A DNA stretch of 64,000 nucleotides from a virus (lineage: Duplodnaviria > Caudoviricetes), in the IMG/VR virus record IMGVR_UViG_3300037492_000170, positions 58,745-122,744 of that record. The stretch is one strand, 5' to 3'. This document shows positions 414-64,000 of the stretch, in pieces. Each line of letters opens with the position of its first letter. The first letter of the stretch is position 1. The translations under genes and the position numbers were made by a program. The notes under the pieces are model-generated. The model had not been told where the DNA came from. It was given only the letters and a program-made list of their open reading frames with translations, and searched no databases.

Positions 414-1502
414 TTATGTCAGTACGCCGCAGTCCAACGTGGTAATGTCTCCCCAAGCTACATCTGCACCGTGCCCAGCACTCTTTAAGAACTGTCCGGA
501 TGTACCATGTAAAAGTTCCGTGGGAACAAAAGTAGCGCCCTGATATACCAAAATGGAACCTTGCTCTGCACCATGGACTAACTGTGTTAATGCAATAGAG
601 TCTGCCGCAGGTGCAGGAATAGCTTCCCATCCTATATCAGTAGCAGCTCCACCAGCAGTAAGCACATAACCATCAGCACCAGCAGCTAAAAATGTAGGGG
701 GACCACCAGAACCATTATAAGCAACAAGGTCCCCACGAGTTCCGTGCTCCATCATCGCTAGGGTCACATAGTTAGCGGCAATTGACAAATCATGACTATG
801 GTCCTGACGTGCTACCTGAGATGAACTACCCACTGCACCAGAACTTGCATCTGCAATCGACCCAGGTTCACTGGATGCTAACGCGTAATTATTAATCGGA
901 ACCCATGCAGCACCTGAATAGATGAACAGAAGGTCCTCATCGTCAACATATGCACACATACCTTCAGTAGGGACCTTAAATTCCCATGCATCTGGTGTTA
1001 GCGCAGTATTCCACTGTGCTATCTGCCCTGCTTTATTAGCCCATGCACCAGTGGGGTCTGCTGCAATTATATATCTATCACCATTTGTAGGTGTTACTGG
1101 AGGTGTTGCAAGGTCATTATCCTTAACAGAGTCCTGAAACTCACCTACACCCCAAGAAGCAGCAGTAATAACCTGTTGAATCTTCTGCCCAGACCATGTA
1201 CCAGATGCATCCGTAGCTGCATCGTCGAGCTTCAATGAAACCTTAGTAAATGTAGTCGGTGCTGAACAGTAATACACAGTCGCATTGGTTGTATCTACAT
1301 ATAAACAGCCAGCAATACCGCCAGCAGAAGGCACTCCAGCGCTTGTGAACGCCTTATTGACTGGAACTTTGGTCGCACTGTTGTCTGCCGAGGTTACGTA
1401 GAATACTGTATTCTCGGTGTCAAACCACAATTCCGACAAATACCCTGTAGCTGCAGCAACCAGTGCTGCGGTCCCTCTTTTATGTTGTAATTTCACTGGC
1501 AT
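414..1502 (-). CDS. Tail fibre-associated protein, Mtd_N-like plus DUF2793-like domain
   Basis: KLQHKRGTAA N-terminus; DLATPPVTPTNGDRYII...GAWANKAGQIA...PTEGMCAYVDDE...YSGAAW; two C-terminal repeats. Confidence 0.65.
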   Translation of the reverse strand: MPVKLQHKRGTAALVAAATGYLSELWFDTENTVFYVTSADNSATKVPVNKAFTSAGVPSAGGIAGCLYVDTTNATVYYCSAPTTFTKVSLKLDDAATDASGTWSGQKIQQVITAASWGVGEFQDSVKDNDLATPPVTPTNGDRYIIAADPTGAWANKAGQIAQWNTALTPDAWEFKVPTEGMCAYVDDEDLLFIYSGAAWVPINNYALASSEPGSIADASSGAVGSSSQVARQDHSHDLSIAANYVTLAMMEHGTRGDLVAYNGSGGPPTFLAAGADGYVLTAGGAATDIGWEAIPAPAADSIALTQLVHGAEQGSILVYQGATFVPTELLHGTSGQFLKSAGHGADVAWGDITTLDCGVLT

Positions 1503-2176
1503 AACGATAACTCCTTATTTGCTTTACTTATTCTCCGACATGCTCTCACAGGAGTTGTAATAATTCTCTCATCACTCCACCCCCTGTCCTTTCTTCCCAT
1601 TATAGCCTCTCTACTTACCGATAACCTTACAGCCCATTGAGCCACAGTTAAATCTTCACCATTGAAAATCAATCTACGATTAGCTCTAGTATTGTTCATC
1701 TGTTCTCTATGTGTCGCCCATCTACAATTTTCAGGTTCATAATCCCCGTTATTGTCCTTCCTGTCTAGGGACATACCCTCCAGTGGATCTCCCATATCAT
1801 TGTAGAAATTCTCAAAGCCGTGATTGGGGTCTAACCATCTATCACAAACCTTAATACCCCGACCACCATAGTCTTTATATCGTGCATTGCTAGGGTTATA
1901 ACACCTATCCTTCATACCTTGCCATGTTCTATATATTTTAGGCAAAGCACCATTCATACGATTACCATGAGTGGTAAAAGACCTAGCTGTAGACTCTTTT
2001 CTTAAACAACCACAAGACTTTGTATTCCCCTTCATTAAATGTGACCCTGTAACAACAGTCTTGTTACCACAAATACAATCACACTCCCAAAGCGTCTTGT
2101 TAAATTTAGTAGTTCCAGCAAACTTCATTACTTCCAACCTATCGAACTTCTGTCCGACTAAATCTAGTCTCATCAC
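1493..2176 (-). CDS. HNH-like phage endonuclease (homing-endonuclease-like family); ATG at 2173 is the likely start
   Basis: CxCxCG...KSCGC; MKDRCYNP...YGGRGIKVCDRW; SLDRKDNNGDYEPENCRWAT; C-terminal HTH-like segment. Confidence 0.8.
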   Translation of the reverse strand: MMRLDLVGQKFDRLEVMKFAGTTKFNKTLWECDCICGNKTVVTGSHLMKGNTKSCGCLRKESTARSFTTHGNRMNGALPKIYRTWQGMKDRCYNPSNARYKDYGGRGIKVCDRWLDPNHGFENFYNDMGDPLEGMSLDRKDNNGDYEPENCRWATHREQMNNTRANRRLIFNGEDLTVAQWAVRLSVSREAIMGRKDRGWSDERIITTPVRACRRISKANKELSLCQ

Positions 2177-2178
2177 TT

Positions 2179-2270
2179 CACTCCTTATTGTGTTATCCTT
2201 AGAAGTTATTTAATGGGAAGGCGGCTAAGGTTTCCGCTTTATCGGGTGTACACCCCTATCCCATTAAAAC
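2179..2270 (-). ncRNA. Putative structured cis-RNA (three-way junction plus pseudoknot), copy 1, in the 5' UTR of an HNH-like gene
   Basis: P1 2209-2218/2259-2268; hairpin GGGUG-UA-CACCC; hairpin GCGG-AAACCUUAG-CCGC; loop complementary to CUAAGG at 2197-2202; covaries with the copy at 7476-7568. Confidence 0.7.
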
Positions 2271-2277
2271 TACAATA

Positions 2278-2856
2278 TCACGCAAGAGCCCCACAGTCTA
2301 CTTCATTCAGCCAAGCACCGGATATTGTTGGACTGTCACTTCTAGACAGCGGGATTGAATTAACGGTTGGTGTAGTAGTTGCACTTGCTGGATTCTCCAC
2401 TACAGTATTACTAGCATTTAATGTGGCGTGCTTACTATGAGGACTGGCAGCATTAATATGAGCAGAAATATCTGCTGGACTATATGTAAGCTGTACCCAC
2501 GCATCCCCTGAAGTAAGAAACAATGTGAAGGTATCTGTCTCAAAATACAATTTTCCAGGAACCACCGCAGAGGGTCTTTCATCATGAGTACCTGTTACAC
2601 ACGCTCCTACTAATTTCTTGCCTGTACCATTAAACAAATACACTTCATTAGTATCAGTGGTAAAAACGATTTCATAATCCCTTAGATTACTAGAAAACAT
2701 CTGAGCCTGCGTACCCCTACGCAATACCACTGAATGTCTCTCGGCAGCAAAATCTCCAGGTTCGAGATACTCAACAATCTGCTCGTTAGTCCATAACTCG
2801 GCATCGTCAGTAACAGAATCATCTATGGGATAGTAGGGATTTATTATAGTTATCAT
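2278..2856 (-). CDS. Mtd_N-like fibre-associated protein
   Basis: Internal VVLRRGTQA...YEIVFTTDTNEVYLFNG; ends VDCGALA, like LDCGVLT of 414..1502. Confidence 0.6.
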   Translation of the reverse strand: MITIINPYYPIDDSVTDDAELWTNEQIVEYLEPGDFAAERHSVVLRRGTQAQMFSSNLRDYEIVFTTDTNEVYLFNGTGKKLVGACVTGTHDERPSAVVPGKLYFETDTFTLFLTSGDAWVQLTYSPADISAHINAASPHSKHATLNASNTVVENPASATTTPTVNSIPLSRSDSPTISGAWLNEVDCGALA

Positions 2857-2857
2857 A

Positions 2858-3271
2858 TCATGAGCCCCACAACTTTACTCCAGCATTATGTGTTCCTCCA
2901 CTTACAAAAACTATACTCCCAAACTTTCCATCTGTTTCTATAAGCATAAAAACCCCTACTGGTATTTCGAGTACATTAGCTGTATCTCCATTAGCATAAA
3001 AACTAACAATTCCGCCTGTTTCATTGTGTAACATAAGACTATTATAACCCATACATAAAATGGGGTCAGACGGAAAATCATTAACAGTTGCTAATTCCAT
3101 AAATGGATTTACTAGTGGCTCGTGACTAACGAATGATACCCCTGTAGGCAAAGTCGTTGGATAAAAATCCGTAGTGCCTGTCGTATATTTCTTGATGGAC
3201 TTGCGCTTCTTCAGCCCAATACCACCACGTAGAGTAACTGTACGAGCAGTGGAGTTCGTGTAGGTTGGCAT
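2858..3271 (-). CDS. Hypothetical protein, probably virion-associated
   Basis: 137-aa ORF tightly packed in the operon. Confidence 0.6.
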   Translation of the reverse strand: MPTYTNSTARTVTLRGGIGLKKRKSIKKYTTGTTDFYPTTLPTGVSFVSHEPLVNPFMELATVNDFPSDPILCMGYNSLMLHNETGGIVSFYANGDTANVLEIPVGVFMLIETDGKFGSIVFVSGGTHNAGVKLWGS

Positions 3272-3274
3272 ATT

Positions 3275-3505
3275 TTATTCCTCTTCTGGAACTGTCTCTT
3301 CTTCAACCGGACGGAAGGTTATCACCTTAATTTCTGTTTGGCTAATCCAAATACTACCACCATTTTCCATAGGAACTCTTATCTTAGCCTGTGACATTAG
3401 AGCAGGTTCAATAGCTGCTTGTTCCCCGTCTATAACCATGCTAAATACCACATCATTTCCGTCCGAATCACGTAAATTACTTATAATTGTCACTGTCGTC
3501 TTCAT
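3275..3505 (-). CDS. Hypothetical protein
   Basis: 76 aa, SD GGGAGG upstream. Confidence 0.65.
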   Translation of the reverse strand: MKTTVTIISNLRDSDGNDVVFSMVIDGEQAAIEPALMSQAKIRVPMENGGSIWISQTEIKVITFRPVEEETVPEEE

Positions 3506-3532
3506 CTGTCTACCTCCCTTTTGTTTTACAGT

Positions 3533-3883
3533 TTATACTTTTAGTGCTGCTACTGCTTTAAACGTAGCAATCTTCTCTGACATAGCCAATTCTGTCGGTG
3601 TAGCTTCCGCTGCAACAAACTCAGCCAACTCACCTTCTGCTGCATCTGCCACATCACCTATCTGAGCCTCAACCGCAGTAGTCAGTGCACTAAAGTCTGT
3701 CGTGATGTCGGCAATAACTTTATTGCCTCTGGTTAGCTTTAGCCCTTCCGGTGAAAGCTGTGCCATGAACATTCCGAACACTGAACTGTAAAGCCCAGAT
3801 TCAGCCGGTCCTGCTTCCTGCCACACTATACGAAATGATTCCGTACCTGAAATTATACTAGCCAAAACATCTGCTGCTGCCAT
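3533..3883 (-). CDS. Hypothetical Ala-rich protein
   Basis: 116 aa, starts 1 nt after the upstream stop. Confidence 0.65.
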   Translation of the reverse strand: MAAADVLASIISGTESFRIVWQEAGPAESGLYSSVFGMFMAQLSPEGLKLTRGNKVIADITTDFSALTTAVEAQIGDVADAAEGELAEFVAAEATPTELAMSEKIATFKAVAALKV

Positions 3884-3884
3884 T

Positions 3885-4556
3885 TTATTCCCCTTCTACT
3901 ACTTTTAGTTGTGGCTTTAGTAATTCTTTTCTAAAGCGCATGAAATCTCCTATAAACCGTTTACCACCAATATGAACATTGGTAATTTCGGGATCTAAAT
4001 AAATGCTATACCCCAACTCTCTTAATCTCCTACACATCACATTATCTTCCGACACCAACTCCCCATCTATTATCTTAACGTCAAATATCATTTTTCTCAA
4101 TTTGCCTTCATTCTCATACTCAGGGCTATTGTCCCATAATGATTGCATGGCTTTATTACTGAGTTTGAGGAATCCAGTACCTAAACTATTAACTTTGATA
4201 AGACCATTCTCCCCTATATCCAGATTCTGTGTGTTAATGTTATAAAGCTCTGCGTCATCAGTCTTTTTACGCACAGTTCCACCAACTACATCCTCTGGAT
4301 AATTGAATAGCTTGAAAACATTTATTGGCTCAAACTCCATGTCATCGTCCACGAAGATCATCGCATCGGCACTGTTCTCCAATGCTATTGCAATCAGATC
4401 ATTTCTTGCCCTTTGGATTAAGGCATCGTGACTGAGGTAAATGGGATAAGTGGTGATACCAAGGGATTCACCCATACGAATAGTTTCTACCATAGAAGCA
4501 CAGTAGTAGACCGAAACGGTTCCCGAATAACAAGGAGTTCCAATGATAATATTCAT
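3885..4556 (-). CDS. GT-A fold glycosyltransferase-like protein
   Basis: IGTPCY...LIQRARNDL...MIFVDDDMEF (DxD)...GTGF...SEDNVMCRR...HIG. Confidence 0.7.
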   Translation of the reverse strand: MNIIIGTPCYSGTVSVYYCASMVETIRMGESLGITTYPIYLSHDALIQRARNDLIAIALENSADAMIFVDDDMEFEPINVFKLFNYPEDVVGGTVRKKTDDAELYNINTQNLDIGENGLIKVNSLGTGFLKLSNKAMQSLWDNSPEYENEGKLRKMIFDVKIIDGELVSEDNVMCRRLRELGYSIYLDPEITNVHIGGKRFIGDFMRFRKELLKPQLKVVEGE

Positions 4557-6082
4557 CTAGCTTCTAGTTCCTTTACCCTAGCAGACAGTTCCTGAATTGC
4601 CCTCACCATAACAACCAGTAGATTCCCCGATGCTACTTCCAACCTTTCAGGATTCACATCATAGACTAATCCAGGTATTGTCACACCTTCTTCCTTCTGT
4701 GCGATTTGAAGTTCTTGGGCGAGAAAGCCCATACCCGGTATCCCAACTTTGCTACCATCCCTCATATTCCAAGTAAATTCCCTTGGTTTGAGGCGATTAA
4801 TAAACTCAAGTCCTACAGGGATATTGCCTATATTAGTTTTATCTCGTTCATCAGAAATAGCGGTAATAGAAGTAACCTGACATCTCAATGTAGCAACACT
4901 AGCATTACCTAATGTCACTTCATTAGTAGCGGTAGCACTTGAAGCATCAGCATCGTAGCCAATTGCAGTCAGGTTTGAGCCGGTGGTTACGCTATCCAAT
5001 GCTAATGTACCAACAGCGGTGTTGTAGACTCCGGTGGTGTTTGCATAAAGTGCCCAATACCCAATCCCTACGTTGGAAGTACCAATACTATTAGTCTCAA
5101 GAGCACTAGTTCCGACAGCGGTGTTGTTGGCTCCGGTGGTGTTTGCAGCGAGAGCATTAGTACCTACAGCAGTACAGTTTGAAAACGATTGATTACTCGC
5201 TCCTCGTAATGCTGCAACTCCCAAAGCAACATTGTTTATACCAGTTAAATTAAAACGCATGGCAGTGTAACCAACAGCCACATTTTCATAACCGGTAGTT
5301 AATGCCTGGGCTGCCTGATAACCTAATACACTGTTGCTGTTGCCTACTGCGGAAGCAAGTGCACTTCCCCCTACGGCTACATTCTGAACTCCTATTTGAT
5401 TCCCCTCCAATGCTGATGCACCAACAGCGGTGTTGTTGACACCGGTGGTGTTTGTAGTAAGACTATTGTAGCCACATGCTGTATTATTATCTGCTAAATT
5501 AGCTGCTAGGGCACTCCTACCAACGGCTACATTAGAACATCCTACAAGGTTAGCATAAAGGGCTGCATCTCCTACTGCCACATTTTGAACACCCGTTGTG
5601 TTTGTTTGAAGTGCCCTAGAGCCACATGCAGTATTATAATTCCCTGTTGTATTTGCATTCAACGCACTAGTACCAATAGCAACATTTGATGTAACCAACC
5701 CAGCACCATAGGATAAAACACGAGAGAATATATGGTCACCGGCAGGATAAGTTCCAGCAACTACTTCACTGGCATTGATAGCTTCAAAGGCTAAATCAGT
5801 AGTAGTGCCACCACCTTTAAGGACATATCCATCTACTGGTGCGGCAAGTAATGTTGGCGTAAATGAAGCTCCTGCATAGTGCATGATACCACGGGAAGCA
5901 CCATGTACGATGTTAGTTAGGGCTATATTATTAACGGCATCGTCAGCAGAGTACTTCTTCTTTGAGGAACCATCATACACGACCAACTTTTTAGTATCTG
6001 TCTCAAACGCTATTTCATAATCACTGAGCGACGCAGCATCTACAACTGCGGCGGTTCCCCGTTTAATTTTTATAACTGCCAT
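4553..6082 (-). CDS. Tail fibre with beta-roll N-x-A-V-G repeats and C-terminal intramolecular chaperone (peptidase S74-like)
   Basis: Mtd_N-like start; many N(T/V)A(V/I)GxxAL repeats; SDERDKTNI...GFLAQE...coiled-coil end. Confidence 0.85.
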   Translation of the reverse strand: MAVIKIKRGTAAVVDAASLSDYEIAFETDTKKLVVYDGSSKKKYSADDAVNNIALTNIVHGASRGIMHYAGASFTPTLLAAPVDGYVLKGGGTTTDLAFEAINASEVVAGTYPAGDHIFSRVLSYGAGLVTSNVAIGTSALNANTTGNYNTACGSRALQTNTTGVQNVAVGDAALYANLVGCSNVAVGRSALAANLADNNTACGYNSLTTNTTGVNNTAVGASALEGNQIGVQNVAVGGSALASAVGNSNSVLGYQAAQALTTGYENVAVGYTAMRFNLTGINNVALGVAALRGASNQSFSNCTAVGTNALAANTTGANNTAVGTSALETNSIGTSNVGIGYWALYANTTGVYNTAVGTLALDSVTTGSNLTAIGYDADASSATATNEVTLGNASVATLRCQVTSITAISDERDKTNIGNIPVGLEFINRLKPREFTWNMRDGSKVGIPGMGFLAQELQIAQKEEGVTIPGLVYDVNPERLEVASGNLLVVMVRAIQELSARVKELEAR

Positions 6083-6083
6083 C

Positions 6084-6305
6084 TTACACTCCTAAGATAT
6101 TCTCGAAATGTTCATGCGCCCTTTGCATACAGATGAACATCTTATCAAGATTTGTCGGTATTATCTGTCCATCAAGAAGTGCTGCTCCAGGAATACTTAC
6201 ATCGCCCCCATCAAACGTGGGGGTTGGATTACTATCACTTGCCACTCCAGCATCCACCAATAGAAGATTATCCAGACAAGTCATATCACCATCATATAAC
6301 AGCAT
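6084..6305 (-). CDS. Hypothetical protein
   Basis: 73 aa, coupled to both neighbours. Confidence 0.55.
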   Translation of the reverse strand: MLLYDGDMTCLDNLLLVDAGVASDSNPTPTFDGGDVSIPGAALLDGQIIPTNLDKMFICMQRAHEHFENILGV

Positions 6306-6862
6306 TAGTATATCCTATACACCATCGCTGGCGCAGCTTGAGGAAAGGGTGGTCGTTCATCACAGAACTCTACCATCCAACCACTTATAGGTTGAAGTTC
6401 ATTTGCAAGAAAATCATGCACGGTAAATTGAATAGGAGACGCATCGTGGAATAAGAATACGCCGGTTGGTTTAAGTTTACTCTTGTATAAATTAAACGTA
6501 TTCTGCGCTTGCTCATAGGTGTGAGGGTCTAAGTCTATGTGAATTATGTCCAAACTATTGTCAGCAAACTGATTTACACAGTCCTCAGCACGTGAGTGTA
6601 TGAAGAATGTCTTTAGATTGTCTATAACAGGTGCCATCTCTACTCGATAATTGATATCCACAAATTTAATGGTGTAGGGCAGCCCTACCTCATCCAACTT
6701 CTCAACAAATAACCTTGCACTGAATCCAAGGTCACACCCTAATTCTAACACAGATATATTAGTTTGTCCAACAATTGCTTTGTCAATAGCATTGAGATAG
6801 AAGTCATGATAACTCTTGAATACTTCCACACCTAACATTTCCGAGAACGGTCGCTCTATCAT
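6305..6862 (-). CDS. Class I SAM-dependent methyltransferase (Methyltransf_24-like)
   Basis: VLELGCDLGFS motif I; DIIHIDLDPHTYE; LKPTGVFLFHD. Confidence 0.8.
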   Translation of the reverse strand: MIERPFSEMLGVEVFKSYHDFYLNAIDKAIVGQTNISVLELGCDLGFSARLFVEKLDEVGLPYTIKFVDINYRVEMAPVIDNLKTFFIHSRAEDCVNQFADNSLDIIHIDLDPHTYEQAQNTFNLYKSKLKPTGVFLFHDASPIQFTVHDFLANELQPISGWMVEFCDERPPFPQAAPAMVYRIY

Positions 6863-7470
6863 AATGCCCCCCTAACTGGACGTGTAAGAGAATCTTCTAC
6901 TGACCACGCCTTTAGCCTAGAATATAATGTACTGACTGGCATACCTAAATTGCGTGCCCACTGCGATGCCGTCATAGTCTTCCCATCATAATGAATTATA
7001 ACATTATCTCTCATATTATTCATTTGCTCGAAGCGAGTTGCCCACCTATAGTTATTTGGTGCATAATCCCCATCGTTATCAATTCTATCTAAAGATTTAC
7101 CAGCGGGGGCCTCCCCTACATCAGCAAGAAAGTTTTCAAACTTCAACCATCTATCACATACTTTTATTCCTCGTCCACCATATCTATCATAAAACTTATG
7201 ATTTGGGTTTAAGCATCTCTGCAGCATACCACTCCATACACGATAAATATTAGTTTCCTTTCCAACTCTGTTATATCCATGCTTAGTCACTACATCAATA
7301 TGAAGGCAACCACACGATTTAGTGCCTCCACTTCTCAACTGATCCCCACGAACCTTACAGACTTTACCACAATCACATCGGCAAATCCAATAATACATCC
7401 TGCGTTTATTTTTATCACCTGTACTAATCACAGTTAGTCTTCCAAATATTTGCCCAGTTAAATCTATCAT
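6859..7470 (-). CDS. HNH-like phage endonuclease, paralog of 1493..2176
   Basis: CRCDCG...KSCGC; MLQRCLNP...YGGRGIKVCDRW; SLDRIDNDGDYAPNNYRWAT. Confidence 0.8.
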   Translation of the reverse strand: MIDLTGQIFGRLTVISTGDKNKRRMYYWICRCDCGKVCKVRGDQLRSGGTKSCGCLHIDVVTKHGYNRVGKETNIYRVWSGMLQRCLNPNHKFYDRYGGRGIKVCDRWLKFENFLADVGEAPAGKSLDRIDNDGDYAPNNYRWATRFEQMNNMRDNVIIHYDGKTMTASQWARNLGMPVSTLYSRLKAWSVEDSLTRPVRGAL

Positions 7471-7475
7471 AATAT

Positions 7476-7568
7476 CACTCCTTATGGTGTTTATCCTTAG
7501 TGATTATCATGGGCAGGCCGCTAAGGTTTCGGCTCTTCGGGTCTAGATTCCCTAGCCCATGCTAAAAC
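7476..7568 (-). ncRNA. Putative structured cis-RNA, copy 2, in the 5' UTR of an HNH-like gene
   Basis: P1 7508-7514/7555-7561; GGG/CCC hairpin; GCCG-AAACCUUAG-CGGC; CUAAGG at 7495-7500; SD UAAGGAG. Confidence 0.7.
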
Positions 7569-9197
7569 TTGTTCAATAGCTTCTATAACTTCCTCCACAG
7601 AATGATTCATACAATCATGGTCTGGCAAAGGACACTGTTCTCTATCTTGTTGATATGGTTGATTATTAAAGCATTTATATTCTATAGGGCACGGCTTCCA
7701 CAAGTTAACTCTATCGGGACCCTCATGACCATACTGCTCTGGTCTAGTCCTCCCAAACATGGTTACTGTTGGTACATCAAAAGCTGCTGCCACATGACTC
7801 CCCATAGTGTCCAAACTAACTACAAGGCTTGAAGAAGAAATCCATCGAAAAGCTTCTCTAAATTTAAGGTTTGATATCGACACAACCTTATCAAAAGAAT
7901 CGTGCTGCTCCTCACCTGTCAGGTGGATAACATCATAACCCTTTTCAGTTAGATAATCAATAATAGCCTGCCATCTGTCATTGGACCAATACTTAGTTCT
8001 GCTGATGTCTGAGAAATCAAAGAGTTTAGCATTACTTTGCGGGCATATAACAACATAAGGTCCACTATTCTCCATAGGCTCTATTCCAAATATCTGTGGG
8101 CGCGTACTTGGAGCCACGGGAACATCTATCATCCTGCAATACGCCTCAGATATGTGTCCCTCCCACTTATTCTCTGCCATCCAACTATATATACTCTTCT
8201 CTACTCGATATGTTCTCTGTGCATCAAACTGACCCTTGGCTATCTCATCAATATCTGGATTTCCTTTGAATACGTGCTCACCGTAAGGATGATAGACTGA
8301 TATATTTCGTTCTGGATACATCTCTCGTAGTTGCCTGAAAGCAGGTTCAGACATAACCAAATCCCCGATAGCGTGACTCAAAGAAATGTGAATACCTGGT
8401 TTCAAGTTCTTCTTCAAAATATTGAACCTACGTAAATCATCGAGAGATTTACTCCCGTCTTTTACTGCTCTCGCTCCACCAGTACCTGCCCGGAAATGAT
8501 ATGCTATCGCCCCTGGATGCACTAATACTTTCATACCTTCGAGATGAACGCGCCAGGACAAGTGTGTATCCTCTCTATGAAAATTCAAGAGAACCGTCTC
8601 AAACCCATTAATCCGGTCGAGTGCTGCCTCTGTTAACATCATAGCAGAGTTTATATGCTCCACCGGAAAAGGCTTCTTCCTAGTGTGAAGGGACCACTGA
8701 ACATTAACACTGTCACTAAGATGCTCAATAGTTCCGTGTTTATATCTATCATCGTCGAGTTTAAAGGTATCCGGTTTCGTCCCGGCGAATAGCATGAGTC
8801 CAGATGCAGCACCTACAAGTGGGTCATCGAACAAAGGAACTACCTTTTCCAAGTAGTCTGGAGATAACCACGAGTCATCCTCTGCTCGATATACCAAGGG
8901 ATTCCCCCAGTCACGCGCACCTAACCACCCGGCTTGGTATACCGCCCCTACATGATAAGTGCTTGGTCCTGGTAGAATTCTTATTCTATGCCCCTGCATC
9001 TGTAATTCACCAATAATTTTAGAATAAAGTGAATGCTTGGTCCACTTCTCCTGCGTAAATGCAACATCATCAGAGTCGTCTACGATACATAAATCAAAGT
9101 TTTTAAATGTTTGCATCCTCAAACTGAACAATAGCTGATGCACAATATCCATGCGGTTGTGCGTCGCAACTATCACTGTCACCCGTTTATTGGACAT
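7521..9197 (-). CDS. Two-domain glycosyltransferase (GT2-like N-terminus plus GT9/heptosyltransferase-like C-terminus)
   Basis: VIVATHNR...IVDDS...EDD...REDT; then HAIGDLVM...KYWSNDRW...SLDTMGSHVAAAFDVPTVTMFG. Confidence 0.8.
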   Translation of the reverse strand: MSNKRVTVIVATHNRMDIVHQLLFSLRMQTFKNFDLCIVDDSDDVAFTQEKWTKHSLYSKIIGELQMQGHRIRILPGPSTYHVGAVYQAGWLGARDWGNPLVYRAEDDSWLSPDYLEKVVPLFDDPLVGAASGLMLFAGTKPDTFKLDDDRYKHGTIEHLSDSVNVQWSLHTRKKPFPVEHINSAMMLTEAALDRINGFETVLLNFHREDTHLSWRVHLEGMKVLVHPGAIAYHFRAGTGGARAVKDGSKSLDDLRRFNILKKNLKPGIHISLSHAIGDLVMSEPAFRQLREMYPERNISVYHPYGEHVFKGNPDIDEIAKGQFDAQRTYRVEKSIYSWMAENKWEGHISEAYCRMIDVPVAPSTRPQIFGIEPMENSGPYVVICPQSNAKLFDFSDISRTKYWSNDRWQAIIDYLTEKGYDVIHLTGEEQHDSFDKVVSISNLKFREAFRWISSSSLVVSLDTMGSHVAAAFDVPTVTMFGRTRPEQYGHEGPDRVNLWKPCPIEYKCFNNQPYQQDREQCPLPDHDCMNHSVEEVIEAIEQVLAWARESRPEEPKP

Positions 9198-9230
9198 AAA
9201 AGCCTCCCTAGTCCATTTAGAATAACATTG

Positions 9231-9259
9231 ACTATAGATGTGATTATCTGCTTTGTCAA
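9231..9259 (-). promoter_or_regulatory. sigma70-like promoter for the glycosyltransferase/fibre cluster
   Basis: TTGACA (9259-9254), 17 nt, TATAGT (9236-9231). Confidence 0.7.
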
Positions 9260-9260
9260 G

Positions 9261-9455
9261 TTATCGTTTACCTTGAGTCTCAATAGCTAAAGCAACGGCG
9301 TTCCTGTAATTGTCAGCAGCGATAATAAAATCACTAGTACCGCTAATAGCTGAGATATCTGCGGCTGATACCATCTGCTCCAGAGATGTAATCATCTGCA
9401 AAACAGTAAGCAGCCTCATGTCTACTTTCTCATAATCAATATTTGCTAGTGCCAT
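9261..9455 (-). CDS. Hypothetical protein
   Basis: 64 aa with SD AAGGAG. Confidence 0.6.
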   Translation of the reverse strand: MALANIDYEKVDMRLLTVLQMITSLEQMVSAADISAISGTSDFIIAADNYRNAVALAIETQGKR

Positions 9456-9468
9456 AAGTAATCTCCTT

Positions 9469-12400
9469 TTAGAATAGAACTATTGAATTAACAGGTGGAG
9501 TTCTAATTAGTCTGAGTGTGCCAGTACAACTGTCTAAATAAGTGTTAAACGCAGTCTGATATAGGCTATAAGAATAATTACTCATCCCAACTGCTGGACC
9601 AGCAGTAACAGAAACACTCATATAACCAGATCCCCATAGCACCCACCCAGAAGGATCAGCAAGAGGAATGTTACAGCTTAGTACGTAATTATACGCCTGC
9701 CCCCTTAGATAAGCATCTACTTTTGAACTATTACCTAAAACAACATAGTCTGTATAACAAACAACGTAGCCATAACCTGTAATATAAAAATAAAGAAGCC
9801 CTCTTGATGATCCTGTCCTTAATACATTACATTCTACTGACACATCGGGTCTAAGAAAACCAATCATTGTACTAGACGATATTGTTGCTGAATTAGTAAT
9901 ATTTACATCCCAATACTGTTCTGGTTGATGATATAAAGACCAAAGATTCCAATTGCCACCCATTCTATTGGTAGACACCACCGATATATAACCAATCAGC
10001 ATTGAGTCGCACATACCCTTATTACCAGAGCTGTCACGTGACCCACACACCGTGTAGTGTTTATCAGGCGCAGCTGTTGTTACATACCAGTAAGCAGGGT
10101 TTACCCATTCTGTTCCAAGAGTGTAGTCTTGACCGGCTGCGGGTACTTTCAGGTATATGTAATAGAAACTTCCAGCAGAGAGAGAACAGTTGTCAAGGTG
10201 GAAATGGAGCGTAGAACCATTTACCAGATTCATCTTCGAACCATTCTCAAATACTATCTGGGCATTTGTCTCCATAGGTGAAAGAGTAAAGTAGTATGTG
10301 TCCGCATAGTTCAACCTGATTGGTAGACCAGCGCTTTTTTGGTCCTCATATTTGAACCGTTTTCCAATCCAATCATAAGTAATAAGATAACTCATATCCC
10401 CAACATAACCGCTCTGGAGATTTAATTCCAGTCCCTGCAAATGCAGACTCGTAGTATCCAAAGCGCTATCAAGAGCGTTCAAATCTGATGTGAGAGATCC
10501 CATTCGTTGACTTACCAGACTTACCTTATTACTAAGGCTGTTCCAATCGCCGCTAAGATTACTGATAGTGCTGGCTGTACTATTAAGATTTCCACTGAGA
10601 GCATTGAGATTTGATGTTGCGTTGCTTAAATTGCCGGATAAAGAATTAACATTGCCGCTCAAATTACTGAGCGTTCTGCTCACGTTACTGATATGATTAC
10701 TCAGTGAGTTGTAATTATTTCCCAGCCCACTAAGGTTTAGGCTCAACGAACCTACGTTCCCACTCAAGAGAGAAGCAGTTGATTGAATGCCACTAATATT
10801 AGTAGATAATGAGTTTGTGATGAGACTAATATTACTATACGTGGACCAGAGACTTGTTACCTGCAGACTTGCGGTATTTAGGTTTCCGGATAATGCCGCA
10901 ACATTAGCACTAAGAGCACTTTCATGAACACTTAAATTGCTCATTACATTACTAACATTACTCAACCTACCGCTGAGGGTACTATAAGTATTGCTCAACC
11001 CACTAAGGTTTCCGCTCAGGGAATTTACATTGCCGCTGAGAAGAGTTAGATTAGACTGTGTGGCACTAATATTAGTAGATAATGAGTTTGTGATTAAACT
11101 CACATTGCTATATGTAGACCAGAGGCTATTGATGACTAGACTAGCACCACTCACACTAGAGGTTAAATTGCTAAGATTTCCACTAAGTAAACTAAGATTC
11201 CCACTCAAAGAAGTAAGATTACCACTGACGTTGCTAACCCTATTGCTGAGTGTATTATAATTTGAACCCAGATCGCTTGTAAGTATGCTAAGAGAATTAA
11301 TATTTCCACTCAGAAGGGACACGTCAGAGTATAGTGCGCCTAAGTTTGAATCTAACCCGGACAACTCACTACCAAAATCACTGACATAAGAATGTAATCT
11401 TATAAGGTAGGAATCTGCTGCATTAATATCTGAGGCAACACTGACTAAGTTTCCACTTAAATTACTTACACGACCAGATAATGTTTGTAAATTACTATTT
11501 ACATTTGAAGTCCAATAGCTTAATGAGGCATAGTCACTCTGCAAACTTATAGTATAGTTCGAGAGTTTGTTAACATTACTTCCTAAACCAGAGACACTAC
11601 CTGATAAGGCAGAATATGTTTGACTTATTGCACTGAAATTACTATATAAATTACTAACATCACCACTCATTGCAGAAACATTACTTCTCAAACTGAGTAG
11701 TGTATTGGATAGTCCACTTGCAGAACTAAACAAATCTACTATGTCAAGACTCATAACGTCCGTGTCTGATTGTAGATTACTTAGATTAGAATAGAGAGAC
11801 CCCATATCCTCACTAACATTTGAAGCAAACTCACTGGTATATGAGTGTAAAGCTATTATATTACCATCTGCTGCACTTATATCAGACAGGTAATCTGAAA
11901 TGTGAGACTGAACATTACTCACATTACTATAAACAGCCCCAACATCACTTACAAGGGAATTGTAGTGCAGAGAAATATTGTTAAGATTGATTCCCAATCC
12001 AGAAAGCTGTCCTGATAATGTATTAAAATTACTCCCTGTTGCACTAATGTTACCACTCAGTATATTCAAATTACTAATAGTAGCACTTAGATTTGTACTA
12101 AGACTATTTACTCGAAGGGAAACAGCAGTAAAATTAGAGGCAGCCTCAGACCGCAAAGTACTGGCTAATAAAGATATATTATTACTAATCTGGGTGTCTG
12201 CGCTCCCCAGCATATCGAATCCGTGACTGAGATTACCCAACTCAGAATAGATACCAGAAACATTGCTCCAAACATTATTGGACATAAGACTATTTGCATC
12301 ACTAAGGAATGACGTAGCACTATATAAATCACCTGAAAAGTTGCTAAAAATAGAATAGAGTGAATTAATGGTACCAGAGGCAGCACTTACGTCAGAATAG

Positions 12401-33491: not shown

Positions 33492-34529
33492 TTAACTAAT
33501 CCTATTCTTCAACTCCTCTACCCGTAGACAACCGCAAGATTTGGAAGAGCCCCTCTTCAGGTTGTTTAAAAGAACCTCGGTAACCTTACCACAATCGCAC
33601 TTACATAACGCATATGTGAGATACTGTTTTCCGTTAGATTTTCTGCATGTATTTACTACGGTTAATCTACCAAACCTAATTCCTGAAAGGTCTTTCAACT
33701 TAGAACCTTGAGGGATATTATACTTAGTACCTGGTTTAGTTCCGGGCGTGTGCGCGTTAGGGTCCAATATCTTCTCGGGTGGGTCCCCCCGTTCATACCT
33801 GTTCTTTAATAACTGATACGAAACTCCAAGCTTCTCTGCCCACTCTCCTATAGTCCGTGACTCGCCGCCATATGTAAGAATGGTATTTTTAATATCCCTA
33901 GTCTTGTTGTCAAGTGTGTTCTTAGATAGAACCTTATCTACAGAAAACTTCGACCTTGACCTTATTCGTTTATGAATAGTAGTGGCTGGAATATCAAGTT
34001 GCTTTGCCCAATCCTCTACAACACGAGTCTCTCCTTTATATGTCAACTTACGATTCGTACGTTTGTTCCTTGCCTGTTCTCTTAGGCTTTCGTACCTACA
34101 GTTCTCTGGAGAATACCCCAAATCATTATCTTTCCTACCTAATGTCTTTCCATCTGGGCATATTCCCATATCTTCAAAGAAGTTAGCGAAGCCGTCTTCC
34201 CCATCCCACCTATCACAAAAGGTTATCCCTCTCCCTCCATAATTTTTATACTCTTTTCTGTTAGGATTTCTGCATCTAGCACGCGCCCCTTCCCATATCG
34301 TATATTCCTTCTGGTATATACTGTCTTTTGCCGCCCCGCCGTGTTTCACATTAGCGCTGCACCCACAAGAGGTGGATTTACCAGTTCGTACTGAATAAGA
34401 ATCGACGAGTCTCTCTGTTCCACACTCACATACACACTTGTAAAAATAACGTGTAGATGTCCCCATAACCTTCTTAATGACACCAGTCACTTTCCATTTC
34501 CCAAATTTTGTTCCGGCTTTATTTTCCAT
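33492..34529 (-). CDS. Free-standing HNH-like endonuclease between sheath and tube genes
   Basis: CVCECG..SCGC; YGGRGITFCDRW; TLGRKDNDLGYSPENCRY; two HTH-like repeats; a second CKCDCG..SCGC module at the C-terminus. Confidence 0.8.
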   Translation of the reverse strand: MENKAGTKFGKWKVTGVIKKVMGTSTRYFYKCVCECGTERLVDSYSVRTGKSTSCGCSANVKHGGAAKDSIYQKEYTIWEGARARCRNPNRKEYKNYGGRGITFCDRWDGEDGFANFFEDMGICPDGKTLGRKDNDLGYSPENCRYESLREQARNKRTNRKLTYKGETRVVEDWAKQLDIPATTIHKRIRSRSKFSVDKVLSKNTLDNKTRDIKNTILTYGGESRTIGEWAEKLGVSYQLLKNRYERGDPPEKILDPNAHTPGTKPGTKYNIPQGSKLKDLSGIRFGRLTVVNTCRKSNGKQYLTYALCKCDCGKVTEVLLNNLKRGSSKSCGCLRVEELKNRIS

Positions 34530-34534
34530 AAAAA

Positions 34535-34588
34535 AACCTCCTTACATTTTCATAAGGAGGTTATACCATAAAAAAGATGAAATGTCAA
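34535..34588 (-). promoter_or_regulatory. sigma70-like promoter plus SD-sequestering hairpin of the HNH-like gene
   Basis: TTGACA (34588-34583), 17 nt, TATAAC (34565-34560); 10-bp stem AACCTCCTTA/TAAGGAGGTT. Confidence 0.75.
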
Positions 34589-63586: not shown

Positions 63587-63725
63587 CTTGCCGAAAATCA
63601 CTAATCGCGAAAAGGTGCCAAACAAATTCTGAGGGTTAGCTACACCAGCCCGCGCTGCGTTAACGTTATGATTACGATACGTTATCACCCTCCCCATATC
63701 CTTTCTTATATACACGCGCGGGAGT

Positions 63726-64000
63726 GACCCAGGTCGACCCCGCGACCCTCGACCCAGGTCGACCCCGCGACCCTCGACCCAGGTCGACCCCGCGACCCTC
63801 GACCCAGGTCGACCCCGCGACCCCGCGACCCTCGACCCTCGACCCAGGTCGACCCCGCGACCCCGCGACCCTCGACCCAGGTCGACCCCGCGACCCTCGA
63901 CCCAGGTCGACCCCGCGACCCTCGACCCAGGTCGACCCCGCGACCCTCGACCCAGGTCGACCCCGCGACCCTCGACCCAGGTCGACCCCGCGACCCTCGA
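63726..64000. repeat. GC-rich tandem array, 25-bp unit GACCCAGGTC-GACCCCGC-GACCCTC, 10 full units, runs off the window
   Basis: Parsed as ABC x3, ABBCC, ABBC, ABC x5. Confidence 0.95.

What the first reader, a model, noticed from the sequence alone, without database searches (positions are those of the whole stretch)
2179..2270. Covarying three-way-junction plus pseudoknot RNA element that travels with HNH-like genes
Seen on the coding strand. Copy 1: AAUGGGA-UAG-GGGUG UA CACCC-GAUAAA-GCGG AAACCUUAG CCGC-CU-UCCCAUU...CUAAGG AUAACACAA UAAGGAG-start. Copy 2 (7476-7568): CAUGGGC-UA-GGG...CCC-GAAGA-GCCG AAACCUUAG CGGC-CU-GCCCAUG...CUAAGG AUAAACACCA UAAGGAG-start. Stems show compensatory changes (GGGA/UCCC vs GGGC/GCCC; GCGG/CCGC vs GCCG/CGGC). 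The loop AAACCUUAG and the downstream CUAAGG are invariant. The loop can pair with CUAAGG (pseudoknot) or with the UAAGG of the Shine-Dalgarno site. Both copies precede paralogous HNH-like genes at unrelated loci. Inference: a mobile RNA+nuclease unit in which the RNA is a translational switch, an autoregulatory binding site, a small ribozyme or an RNA cofactor. I cannot match it to a named RNA family; it is far shorter than HEARO/omegaRNA.
Basis: partly seen in the sequence, partly recalled or inferred. Interest (0 to 1): 0.85.

Follow-up and report, generated by a model that had tools for sequence, protein, structure and literature searches.

The report
Known int-alpA leader RNA before phage genes
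The two folded RNA elements are real, but they belong to a catalogued RNA family of untested function (Rfam int-alpA), a portable leader found before many kinds of phage genes, in which one hairpin loop can pair either with a nearby decoy or with the ribosome-binding site and so probably limits how much protein is made.

Summary
Both copies match Rfam RF02996 (int-alpA RNA) over its full length and above its gathering score: 43.7 and 39.6 bits against 35.8.

The 122.7-kb phage record holds five copies. Four precede paralogues of an HNH-like gene (phrog_374) and one precedes an unrelated ORF. Six of the ten paralogues have no copy.

The RNA is not HNH-specific:
- Of 113 genes behind pattern-found copies in other phages, most encode replication proteins, antirepressors or assorted nucleases; 8 match phrog_374.
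- Only 5 of 80 homologues of this HNH-like gene carry the RNA.

The mechanistic clue holds widely. In 204 leaders from phages and from bacteria of many phyla, the P3 loop is complementary to two downstream sites. One starts about 8 nt after P1 (the pseudoknot). The other ends about 4 nt before the start codon. Both are present in 78%, against 25% with permuted loops.

My best reading, by inference, is a cis-acting leader that sets translation through competition between decoy and ribosome-binding site. No expression data exist.

This scan reached the same reading earlier on at least 25 other genomes. The copies are new members of a known family whose function is still untested.

The parts
2197..2266 (-). 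Copy 1: full-length match to Rfam RF02996 (int-alpA RNA), three-way junction plus 3' tail
   Evidence: 39.6 bits (gathering 35.8), model 1-71; R1 40.4 bits at 2211-2266
2259..2268 (-). Copy 1, P1 5' strand (UUUAAUGGGA)
   Evidence: pairs with 2209-2218
2244..2255 (-). Copy 1, P2 hairpin (4 pairs, 4-nt loop)
2238..2243 (-). Copy 1, junction J23 (GAUAAA; one base longer than the usual GAAAA)
   Evidence: alignment
2221..2237 (-). Copy 1, P3 hairpin; loop AAACCUUAG at 2225-2233
2209..2218 (-). Copy 1, P1 3' strand
2197..2202 (-). Copy 1, site 1 (decoy, CUAAGG), pseudoknot partner of the P3 loop
   Evidence: loop-site duplex -7.2 kcal/mol
2181..2187 (-). Copy 1, site 2 (UAAGG) overlapping the Shine-Dalgarno AAGGAG; 7-nt spacer to AUG
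   Evidence: duplex -4.9 kcal/mol
1493..2173 (-). HNH-like gene behind copy 1 (226 aa, phrog_374)
7494..7562 (-). Copy 2: full-length match to RF02996
   Evidence: 43.7 bits; R1 52.8 bits at 7507-7562
7555..7561 (-). Copy 2, P1 5' strand (CAUGGGC); pairs with 7508-7514
   Evidence: the minimum-energy fold is the three-way junction, -21.0 kcal/mol, z -2.52
7539..7552 (-). Copy 2, P2 hairpin
7517..7533 (-). Copy 2, P3 hairpin; loop AAACCUUAG at 7521-7529. The UAG of the loop (7523-7521) is the stop codon of the upstream 558-aa glycosyltransferase ORF.
7508..7514 (-). Copy 2, P1 3' strand
7495..7500 (-). Copy 2, site 1 (decoy, CUAAGG)
   Evidence: -7.8 kcal/mol
7478..7484 (-). Copy 2, site 2 (UAAGG) overlapping the Shine-Dalgarno AAGGAG; 7-nt spacer to AUG
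   Evidence: -4.9 kcal/mol
6859..7470 (-). HNH-like gene behind copy 2 (203 aa, phrog_374)

Best explanation
Both elements are members of the int-alpA RNA family (Rfam RF02996). Here, and in most places I found the family, it is the 5' leader of a protein-coding gene and not a free-standing small RNA.

Anatomy. A three-way junction (P1, P2, P3, with junctions UA / GAAAA-like / CU) carries a 6-12-nt P3 loop. That loop is complementary to two downstream stretches of the same transcript:
- site 1, a 'decoy', a few bases after P1, which forms the pseudoknot;
- site 2, which overlaps or abuts the Shine-Dalgarno sequence, often displayed in the loop of a small hairpin whose 3' strand holds the last G's of the Shine-Dalgarno sequence.

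Inferred mechanism. The same loop bases cannot hold both sites at once.
- Loop on decoy leaves the ribosome-binding site open, so translation is possible.
- Loop on site 2 locks the ribosome-binding site, so translation is blocked.
- The balance between the two pairings sets a low, cassette-specific translation rate. Co-transcriptional order may add to this: the decoy is made first, which would give each new transcript a short translatable window.

The genes served are ones that are harmful in excess: replication initiators, antirepressors, and homing-type nucleases such as the two HNH-like genes here.

Shown: family membership, covariation of the stems, the two covarying sites, and their fixed positions relative to P1 and the start codon. 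Inferred: that pairing with site 2 happens in the cell, its direction of effect, and what, if anything, shifts the balance.
For: Family membership:
- Both copies are above the gathering score and full length.
- There are five such matches in the phage record, at 39.6-45.6 bits.

Stems covary:
- On 145 sequences the covariation score is 0.457, against 0.118 in shuffles (0 of 500 reach it). Slid controls give 0.104 or less.
- 7 of 8 P1 pairs and 3 of 4 P3 pairs show changes on both sides.

Two sites within this genome, given as loop / decoy / ribosome-binding site:
- AAACCUUAG / CUAAGG / UAAGGAG (the window copies);
- AUUCCUGA / UCAGGA / CAGGAGG;
- UAUCCUAG / CUAGGA / UAGGAGG.

Two sites at large:
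- 84 of 121 leaders have at least two exact complements of 5 nt or more to the loop within 110 nt. Four controls give 5, 19, 11 and 18 of 121.
- In 204 leaders, two non-overlapping sites of -5 kcal/mol or better occur in 78%, against a mean of 25% (maximum 30%) with loops permuted among sequences.
- The 5' site starts a median of 8 nt after P1. The 3' site window ends a median of 4 nt before the start codon.
- Mean loop-to-initiation-region energy is -8.40, against -5.51 (sd 0.12) when permuted.

Leader position:
- The start codon lies a median of 35 nt (interquartile range 30-40) after P1 in 120 of 121 copies.
- Terminator-like hairpins were flagged in only 4 of the 37 leaders that my start-codon filter set aside.
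- -10-like TANNNT hexamers pile up 14-21 nt before the CUAG: 135 hits in 239 sequences, against about 3 per offset elsewhere. In many members this places the transcription start at about the first base of P1.

Small hairpin around site 2:
- 117 of 157 tails fold at -2 kcal/mol or better, and 92 of those hold site 2 in the loop.

Other support:
- The same architecture occurs in bacteria of many phyla.
- Within this phage, a sixth HNH-like paralogue without the RNA has a plain anti-Shine-Dalgarno hairpin instead (-18.6 kcal/mol, z -3.86). This fits a shared need to mask these ribosome-binding sites.
- A known precedent is ribosome-binding-site sequestration for T4 homing endonucleases (PMC2988022, section 12, passages read).
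Against: - There are no expression or probing data. No RNA run holds this DNA.
- The decoy is the stronger partner in 107 of 204 leaders, and in four of the five copies of this phage, both window copies among them (-7.2 and -7.8 against -4.9 kcal/mol). Site 2 is stronger in 58 and the two are similar in 39. At equilibrium the masked state may therefore be rare, and the role of site 2 may be something else.
- Permuted-loop controls ignore relatedness. Many sampled leaders are close relatives, so the effective sample is smaller than 204.
- My sequence sets were drawn with patterns that fix the junction bases. They say nothing about junction conservation and may miss other architectures.
- Start codons were called by a simple rule.
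- For copy 1 the three-way junction (-20.1 kcal/mol) is 1.8 kcal/mol above an alternative nested fold.
- The G-U (57) against A-C (59) count does not show which strand folds.
- The consensus scan finds no full sigma-70 promoter on the minus strand before either window copy.
- The strongly conserved junction has no role in this model.
Confidence: 0.6

Rival explanations
1. A processed, trans-acting antisense regulator of the P1/P7 c4 or P4 CI kind. The three-way junction would be cut from the leader and accumulate. Its free loop would then bind site 2 on other transcripts of the same cassette, or of cassettes with the same loop. That would give dosage-dependent or immunity-type repression, with the loop sequence as a private address. 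In the uncut transcript, the decoy would keep the loop silent.
For: - Rfam types the family 'Gene; sRNA'.
- The architecture parallels c4: a junction RNA that is co-transcribed with its target and whose loop is complementary to the target's ribosome-binding region. The structural details of c4 are recalled. The c4-icd-ant operon and its antisense control are as read in passages of PMC8198154.
- The downstream genes include antirepressors (phrog_63 in 6 of 113; AntA in 3, ANT in 2, Rha in 3) and replication genes, which are the classes under RNA immunity control in P1 and P4.
- Loops differ greatly between elements. Yet three of the five copies in this phage share the identical 9-nt loop while their P3 stems differ, as expected for a shared address.
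- Site 2 often sits in a hairpin loop suited to loop-loop kissing.
Against: - There is no evidence of processing or of a stable small RNA.
- The decoy in cis is usually the stronger partner and would keep the loop occupied.
- There is no match to the c4 family at gathering score.
- The element is nearly always within 20-70 nt of a start codon, so a cis action suffices.
Confidence: 0.15
2. A riboswitch-like or factor-sensing leader. The conserved junction would bind a ubiquitous small molecule, ion or host protein. Binding would decide whether the loop reaches the decoy (on) or falls onto the ribosome-binding site (off).
For: - The junction bases are the most conserved part of the Rfam consensus (CUAG, CGAAAAG, CCUG). 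They are kept in all five copies of this phage, with only small changes.
- The family spans many bacterial phyla, so any partner would have to be universal.
- A junction plus pseudoknot with an expression platform at the Shine-Dalgarno sequence is the usual riboswitch layout (general knowledge).
- A rare variant (L040) has a terminator in place of site 2.
Against: - There is no ligand candidate.
- The downstream genes share no metabolic theme.
- Conserved junction bases can equally serve the RNA's own tertiary fold.
- My sets cannot measure junction conservation, because the patterns fixed those bases.
Confidence: 0.1
3. An activator pseudoknot. Pairing of the loop with the stretch next to the Shine-Dalgarno sequence would open or position the initiation region and raise translation, as in the repZ/repA pseudoknots of IncI/IncB plasmids. 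The decoy would then be the negative element.
For: - Site 2 lies inside a small hairpin that also holds part of the Shine-Dalgarno sequence. A loop-loop contact could melt that hairpin.
- The plasmid precedent for a replication gene is recalled, not read.
Against: - In this phage site 2 overlaps the Shine-Dalgarno bases themselves (UAAGG of UAAGGAG), so pairing would hide them.
- There is no leader peptide or antisense RNA as in the plasmid systems.
- There is no Rfam match to those families.
Confidence: 0.07
4. The RNA and the HNH-like gene would form one mobile unit, and the RNA would serve that protein as an autoregulatory binding site, ribozyme or cofactor.
For: - 4 of 5 copies in this phage precede HNH-like paralogues.
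- 5 of 80 homologues elsewhere have the RNA directly upstream.
- Several nuclease families recur behind the RNA: HNH_3 in 7, phrog_99 in 7, phrog_374 in 8 of 113.
Against: - 6 of 10 paralogues here lack the RNA, and the RNA-bearing ones do not form a clade.
- 75 of 80 homologues lack it.
- Most copies elsewhere precede unrelated genes.
- There is no ribozyme match.
Confidence: 0.04

Closest known systems
int-alpA RNA motif, Rfam RF02996 (typed 'Gene; sRNA').
   Same: Both window copies match the model from end to end and above its gathering score. That covers the three-way junction, the junction bases, the loop AAACCUU and the 3' AAGG that can pair with the loop.
   Different: - The context here is a tail-fibre and glycosyltransferase region of a 122.7-kb phage, before HNH-like genes, and not between an integrase and alpA.
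- There are five copies in one genome, where the other records I searched mostly have one.
- The second loop-complementary site at the ribosome-binding site lies beyond the Rfam model.
- Many relatives score below the gathering score: 19 of 50 records over it, 38 of 50 at E <= 0.001.
- I found no paper on its function. The term occurs in only two papers of the library, as a gene-order label and as a list entry.
c4 antisense RNA of phages P1/P7 (and the CI RNA of satellite P4)
   Same: - It is a small junction-type RNA made from the same transcript as its target.
- Its loop is complementary to the ribosome-binding region of the next gene.
- There is a second complementary copy elsewhere in the transcript.
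- It controls antirepressor or replication genes.
The operon and the antisense control are as read in PMC8198154. The structural details are recalled.
   Different: - There is no match to the c4 family in the window.
- Here only one loop is antisense, and both targets lie downstream.
- Processing and trans action are untested.
RNA hairpins that sequester the ribosome-binding sites of T4-type homing endonuclease genes (I-TevI, I-TevII, I-TevIII, segB, Aeh1 mobE)
   Same: Translation of selfish nuclease genes is held down by pairing of the Shine-Dalgarno region within the leader (PMC2988022, section 12, passages read). The sixth paralogue in this window has exactly such a plain hairpin.
   Different: - Those are simple local hairpins, relieved by a late promoter placed inside them.
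- Here a conserved three-way junction supplies the masking loop from a distance, a decoy competes for it, and the module also serves non-nuclease genes.
HEARO / omega-RNA of IscB-type HNH nucleases
   Same: Only the neighbourhood of an RNA and an HNH-annotated gene.
   Different: - There is no Rfam match.
- The RNA is about 60-70 nt and lies in the 5' leader with a site at the ribosome-binding site.
- The protein is a 200-230-aa phrog_374 member, not IscB.

Membership tests
Rfam RF02996 int-alpA RNA | Covariance-model score at or above the curated gathering score (35.8 bits) | tested here: met
   43.7 bits (7494-7562) and 39.6 bits (2197-2266), both on the minus strand. Confirmed in the whole record, which has five matches.
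Rfam RF02996 int-alpA RNA | Full-length three-way junction: P1, P2 and P3, with junctions UA, GAAAA and CU | tested here: met
   Model positions 1-71 are matched in both copies. Copy 1 has GAUAAA and an A-U pair in place of the C-G pair next to the junction. Stems covary on 145 relatives.
Rfam RF02996 int-alpA RNA | 3' tail with AAGG complementary to the P3 loop AAACCUU (pseudoknot) | tested here: met
   This is seen in the alignment. Duplex energies are -7.2 and -7.8 kcal/mol. I could not see whether Rfam itself annotates this pairing.
Rfam RF02996 int-alpA RNA | Neighbourhood of integrase and alpA genes (the source of the name) | tested here: not met
   The neighbours are Mtd_N and DUF2793 fibre-like proteins, a glycosyltransferase, a methyltransferase and HNH-like genes. 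This context is descriptive and not part of the model.
Rfam RF02996 int-alpA RNA | Acts as a free small RNA (Rfam type 'sRNA') | not testable with these tools
   No RNA data. Position argues for a leader: the start codon lies a median of 35 nt after P1.
c4 antisense RNA (P1/P7) / P4 CI RNA | Match to the family's covariance model | tested here: not met
   Only RF02996 reached gathering score in the window.
c4 antisense RNA (P1/P7) / P4 CI RNA | Loop complementary to the ribosome-binding region of the co-transcribed downstream gene | tested here: met
   This is a functional resemblance only.
c4 antisense RNA (P1/P7) / P4 CI RNA | Processing to a stable small RNA that acts in trans | not testable with these tools
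   No transcript data.
Riboswitch (any class) | Match to a known aptamer family, or a demonstrated ligand | tested here: not met
   No riboswitch family reached gathering score. Ligand binding cannot be tested here.
Self-cleaving ribozymes | Match to a known ribozyme family | tested here: not met
   None at gathering score. Cleavage itself cannot be tested here.
phrog_374 'HNH endonuclease' (the downstream genes) | Profile match over most of the protein | tested here: met
   E = 9.5e-74 and 1.3e-70. No Pfam HNH model matches at E <= 0.01, so nuclease activity is not shown.

The most novel reading that the evidence does not exclude
The int-alpA fold would be a universal, self-contained phage 'translation fuse' or sensor. 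Each cassette would carry its own promoter, a junction RNA whose loop is a private address, a decoy and a matching site at the ribosome-binding site. Either the order of transcription gives each new mRNA a brief translatable window before the loop moves to the ribosome-binding site, or the conserved junction reads a ubiquitous cellular signal that decides between the two partners. Cassettes that share a loop (three of five in this phage) could also cross-talk in trans, as in P1 c4 heteroimmunity. That would make it the first broadly distributed phage-borne class of regulated leaders controlling replication, antirepressor and homing-nuclease genes across bacterial phyla.
Probability: 0.2. Interest if true: 0.8.

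Novelty: new member of a known kind. Interest (0 to 1): 0.45.

Why it matters
int-alpA is one of many orphan RNA motifs: catalogued, typed as a small RNA, and never tested. These data show three things.
- It is overwhelmingly a 5' leader.
- It is spread across phages and prophages of many bacterial phyla.
- It has a second, covarying loop target at the ribosome-binding site.

That turns an unexplained motif into a concrete hypothesis, decoy against ribosome-binding site, which a handful of reporter mutants can test. If the hypothesis holds, it would explain how phages keep replication initiators, antirepressors and selfish nucleases at low dose with a portable cassette that does not depend on the gene. 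It would also offer a compact natural part for tuning translation.

For this window in particular the result is deflationary. The element is not a new RNA and is not tied to the HNH-like gene.

Tried and rejected
- Expression data. No RNA holder is listed for window 1400-9300. This is a blank, and is evidence neither way.
- Laying DNA contigs of four runs on the same stretch. This gave only short pieces and cross-matches between paralogues. No contig cleanly bridged a site with or without the cassette, so the mobile-unit test failed.
- Syntenic relatives. I looked through the flanking glycosyltransferase and the DUF2793 fibre-like protein. None was found, so presence or absence of the cassette could not be compared.
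- blastn of one leader (L013) against named phages. This gave only 3 partial hits with nothing annotated.
- Strand test by G-U against A-C pairs: 57 against 59, uninformative.
- Sigma-70 consensus scan. It found no minus-strand promoter before either window copy. The -10-like boxes I see by eye before three of the five copies therefore remain unconfirmed.
- Terminator idea (P1 plus a U-run, or a terminator after the decoy). A heuristic scan flagged terminator-like hairpins in only 4 of the 37 leaders that my start-codon filter had set aside (2 looked plausible by eye), so I rejected it as the general design. The script stopped on an N before it could count the main set.
- CsrA-type GGA sites. 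I considered these for this phage's decoy and ribosome-binding site, and rejected them because other members use unrelated site sequences.
- DNA-level roles (origin or primase site next to replication genes). I considered these, and rejected them because of the fixed orientation and distance to start codons and the covariation with the ribosome-binding region.
- Literature. 'int-alpA' occurs in 2 papers only, neither on function. A search for three-way junction, pseudoknot, Shine-Dalgarno, prophage and leader RNA from 2017 on listed only riboswitch papers and general reviews; I saw the listing only. Weinberg 2017 has no 'alpA' in its main text. Its supplements, which may describe the motif and its pseudoknot, were closed.
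Full report
WHAT IS THERE. The finding lies on the minus strand. Each has a closing helix P1, a UA junction, a short GGG..CCC hairpin P2, a GA-rich junction, and a hairpin P3 with the loop AAACCUUAG. Then come CU, the P1 partner, a spacer, CUAAGG, about ten bases, UAAGGAG, a 7-nt spacer and AUG. The two genes that follow (1493-2173 and 6859-7470) are paralogues: 96 of 209 residues identical, E = 6e-59. Both match phrog_374 'HNH endonuclease' at E = 9.5e-74 and 1.3e-70. No Pfam HNH model matches them at E <= 0.01.

IT HAS A NAME. A cmscan of the whole window against Rfam 15 returns exactly two matches at gathering level, both to RF02996, int-alpA RNA. They are 7494-7562 (43.7 bits) and 2197-2266 (39.6 bits), against a gathering score of 35.8, and both cover model positions 1-71. 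The window is the right half of a 122,744-base virus record that is estimated 99% complete. That record holds five such matches, all on the minus strand, at 39.6-45.6 bits. My own model R1, run without filters, finds the same five and nothing else in the window; the next match scores 11 bits at E = 0.87.

THE LINK TO THE HNH-LIKE GENE IS LOOSE.
- The record has ten paralogues of this gene.
- Four of them, all in the minus-strand block, have the RNA. Five plus-strand paralogues and the one at window 33492-34529 do not.
- The fifth RNA copy precedes an unrelated 96-aa ORF.
- In a tree of the ten proteins, the RNA-bearing ones do not group. One pairs with an RNA-less paralogue at 81/89 support and another at 88/88. 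The rest of the tree is unresolved.
- Among the best 80 of 516 homologue loci in IMG/VR, R1 finds the RNA directly upstream in 5.

THE FAMILY AT LARGE. These come from Planctomycetota, Acidobacteriota, Desulfobacterota, Nitrospirota, Chloroflexota, Bacillota, and Alpha-, Beta- and Gammaproteobacteria, by the records' own titles. Of 50 viral records checked, 38 have an RF02996 match at E <= 0.001 and 19 are over the gathering score. Most have a single copy.

On 145 cores the three helices covary. The covariation score is 0.457, against 0.118 in shuffles (0 of 500 reach it) and 0.104 or less when the partners are slid.

The products of 113 downstream genes (first 300 aa of each) are diverse:
- Pfam: DUF1376 in 21, HNH_3 in 7, Rha in 3, AntA in 3.
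- PHROGs: primosomal families in 21-23, DNA polymerase/primase in 22-23, O-like replication initiators in 13, phrog_374 in 8, phrog_99 HNH in 7, Ant in 6.

A Citrobacter prophage copy sits after the lysis genes, before a 55-aa ORF. The RNA is therefore a gene-agnostic cassette part.

THE MECHANISTIC CLUE. In this phage the three loop types each have their own decoy and their own ribosome-binding site. CCUUAG goes with CUAAGG and UAAGGAG. UCCUGA goes with UCAGGA and CAGGAGG. UCCUAG goes with CUAGGA and UAGGAGG. The copy before the non-HNH ORF has a weak decoy and a 7-bp site just after its AUG.

The rule holds at large:
- 84 of 121 leaders have two or more exact complements of 5 nt or more to the loop within 110 nt. 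With the sense, reversed, shuffled or permuted loop, the counts are 5, 19, 11 and 18 of 121.
- With duplex energies on the 204 leaders whose start lies 22-70 nt after P1, two separate sites of -5 kcal/mol or better occur in 78%, against a mean of 25% (maximum 30%) for permuted loops.
- The first site starts a median of 8 nt after P1. The second site's 9-nt window ends a median of 4 nt before the start codon.
- The start codon lies a median of 35 nt after P1, interquartile range 30-40.
- The stretch between the decoy and the start often forms a small hairpin with site 2 in its loop. 117 of 157 tails fold at -2 kcal/mol or better, 92 of those hold site 2 in the loop, and the mean z is -1.17.
- -10-like hexamers are concentrated 14-21 nt before the CUAG: 135 in 239 sequences, against about 3 per offset elsewhere. 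In many members the transcript probably begins at P1.
- For the two window copies, the consensus scan finds no full promoter.

HOW IT MOST LIKELY WORKS. Because the same loop bases serve both sites, the two pairings exclude each other. I read the element as a cis-acting translational governor. Loop on decoy leaves the ribosome-binding site open. Loop on site 2 hides it. The decoy is made first.

What is shown is the anatomy and its covariation. The pairing with site 2 in vivo, its sign and any trigger are inference.

A real difficulty is that the decoy is the stronger partner in 107 of 204 leaders. This holds for both window copies, at -7.2 and -7.8 against -4.9 kcal/mol. Site 2 is stronger in 58 and the two are similar in 39. 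The masked state may therefore need help, or site 2 may serve a trans partner. That keeps three rivals alive:
- a c4-like processed antisense RNA (c4-icd-ant control read in PMC8198154);
- a junction that senses a ligand or factor;
- an activating pseudoknot.

The theme of masking nuclease ribosome-binding sites has precedent in T4 (PMC2988022, section 12). It recurs in this window in plain form. The RNA-less paralogue at 33492-34529 has an 11-bp anti-Shine-Dalgarno hairpin before its AUG (-18.6 kcal/mol, z -3.86).

LIMITS.
- There are no RNA data, and the DNA contigs were too fragmented to test mobility.
- No syntenic relatives were found.
- My sequence sets were drawn by patterns that fix the junction, and they contain close relatives.
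- The controls are not phylogeny-aware.
- Start codons were called by rule.
- For copy 1 the three-way junction is 1.8 kcal/mol above an alternative nested fold before the pseudoknot is counted.

NOVELTY. The element is a member of a catalogued family. Within this library, the family's function is not described in print. The term occurs in two papers, neither on function, and the main text of the 2017 survey does not mention it.

I formed my reading before seeing those notes and tested it on my own data. The notes are not independent evidence.

- the two-site statistics across phyla;
- the promoter position;
- the counts against HNH specificity;
- the c4 analogy.

Noticed in passing
window 34530-34585 (minus strand), before the ORF 33492-34529: The HNH-like paralogue without the junction RNA has its own leader. 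An 11-bp hairpin pairs AACCUCCUUAU with GUAAGGAGGUU, so the whole Shine-Dalgarno sequence is paired. A run of seven U and the AUG follow (-18.6 kcal/mol, z -3.86). A TTGACA / TATAAC promoter-like pair lies just upstream, seen by eye. It could be a ribosome-binding-site mask or a terminator.
   Followed up: partly
G000:C1 14577-28881 (plus strand, outside the window) and window 33492-34529: There are ten paralogues of one HNH-like gene in a 122.7-kb phage. Two carry an extra copy of the N-terminal zinc-ribbon-like CxC..CGC module. All share L-x-R-x-D-N where, by recall, HNH_3 proteins have a histidine. No Pfam HNH model matches the two window proteins at E <= 0.01.
   Followed up: partly
window 7521-7523: The 558-aa glycosyltransferase ORF (7521-9197, minus strand) ends at the UAG inside the P3 loop of copy 2. 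Ribosomes finishing that gene would therefore unfold P1, P2 and half of P3. This may couple the two genes, or it may mark an insertion of the cassette into the gene's 3' end.
   Followed up: no
G000:C1:57359-57426 (L002), outside the window: The fifth RNA copy precedes a 96-aa ORF that is not HNH-like. Its decoy is weak (AAGG). Its strongest loop partner (AAGGUUU, 7 bp) lies at +5 to +11, just after the AUG.
   Followed up: partly
window 7536 (run X2, one contig, depth about 5): A metagenome contig follows the glycosyltransferase gene down to about 7536 and then continues with a different P3 hairpin and P1 partner. This suggests that a related strain carries another version of the RNA, swapped at the junction. 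It is a single low-depth contig.
   Followed up: no
window 63676-63996: There is a G+C-rich tandem array with a period of about 25 nt (nine or more copies) at the very end of the record, unlike the rest of the window in composition. It may be a terminal repeat, a packaging feature or an assembly artefact.
   Followed up: no
window 9469-15384 (minus strand): A 1971-aa ORF with long internal repeats (spacings of 702 and about 975 nt) sits next to the glycosyltransferase.
   Followed up: no
L040 4561-4700: This is a variant of the family scoring 50.7 bits for RF02996. In it the decoy is followed by a clear intrinsic terminator (a GC stem and seven U) instead of a second site. It may be a free-standing or attenuator form.
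   Followed up: no
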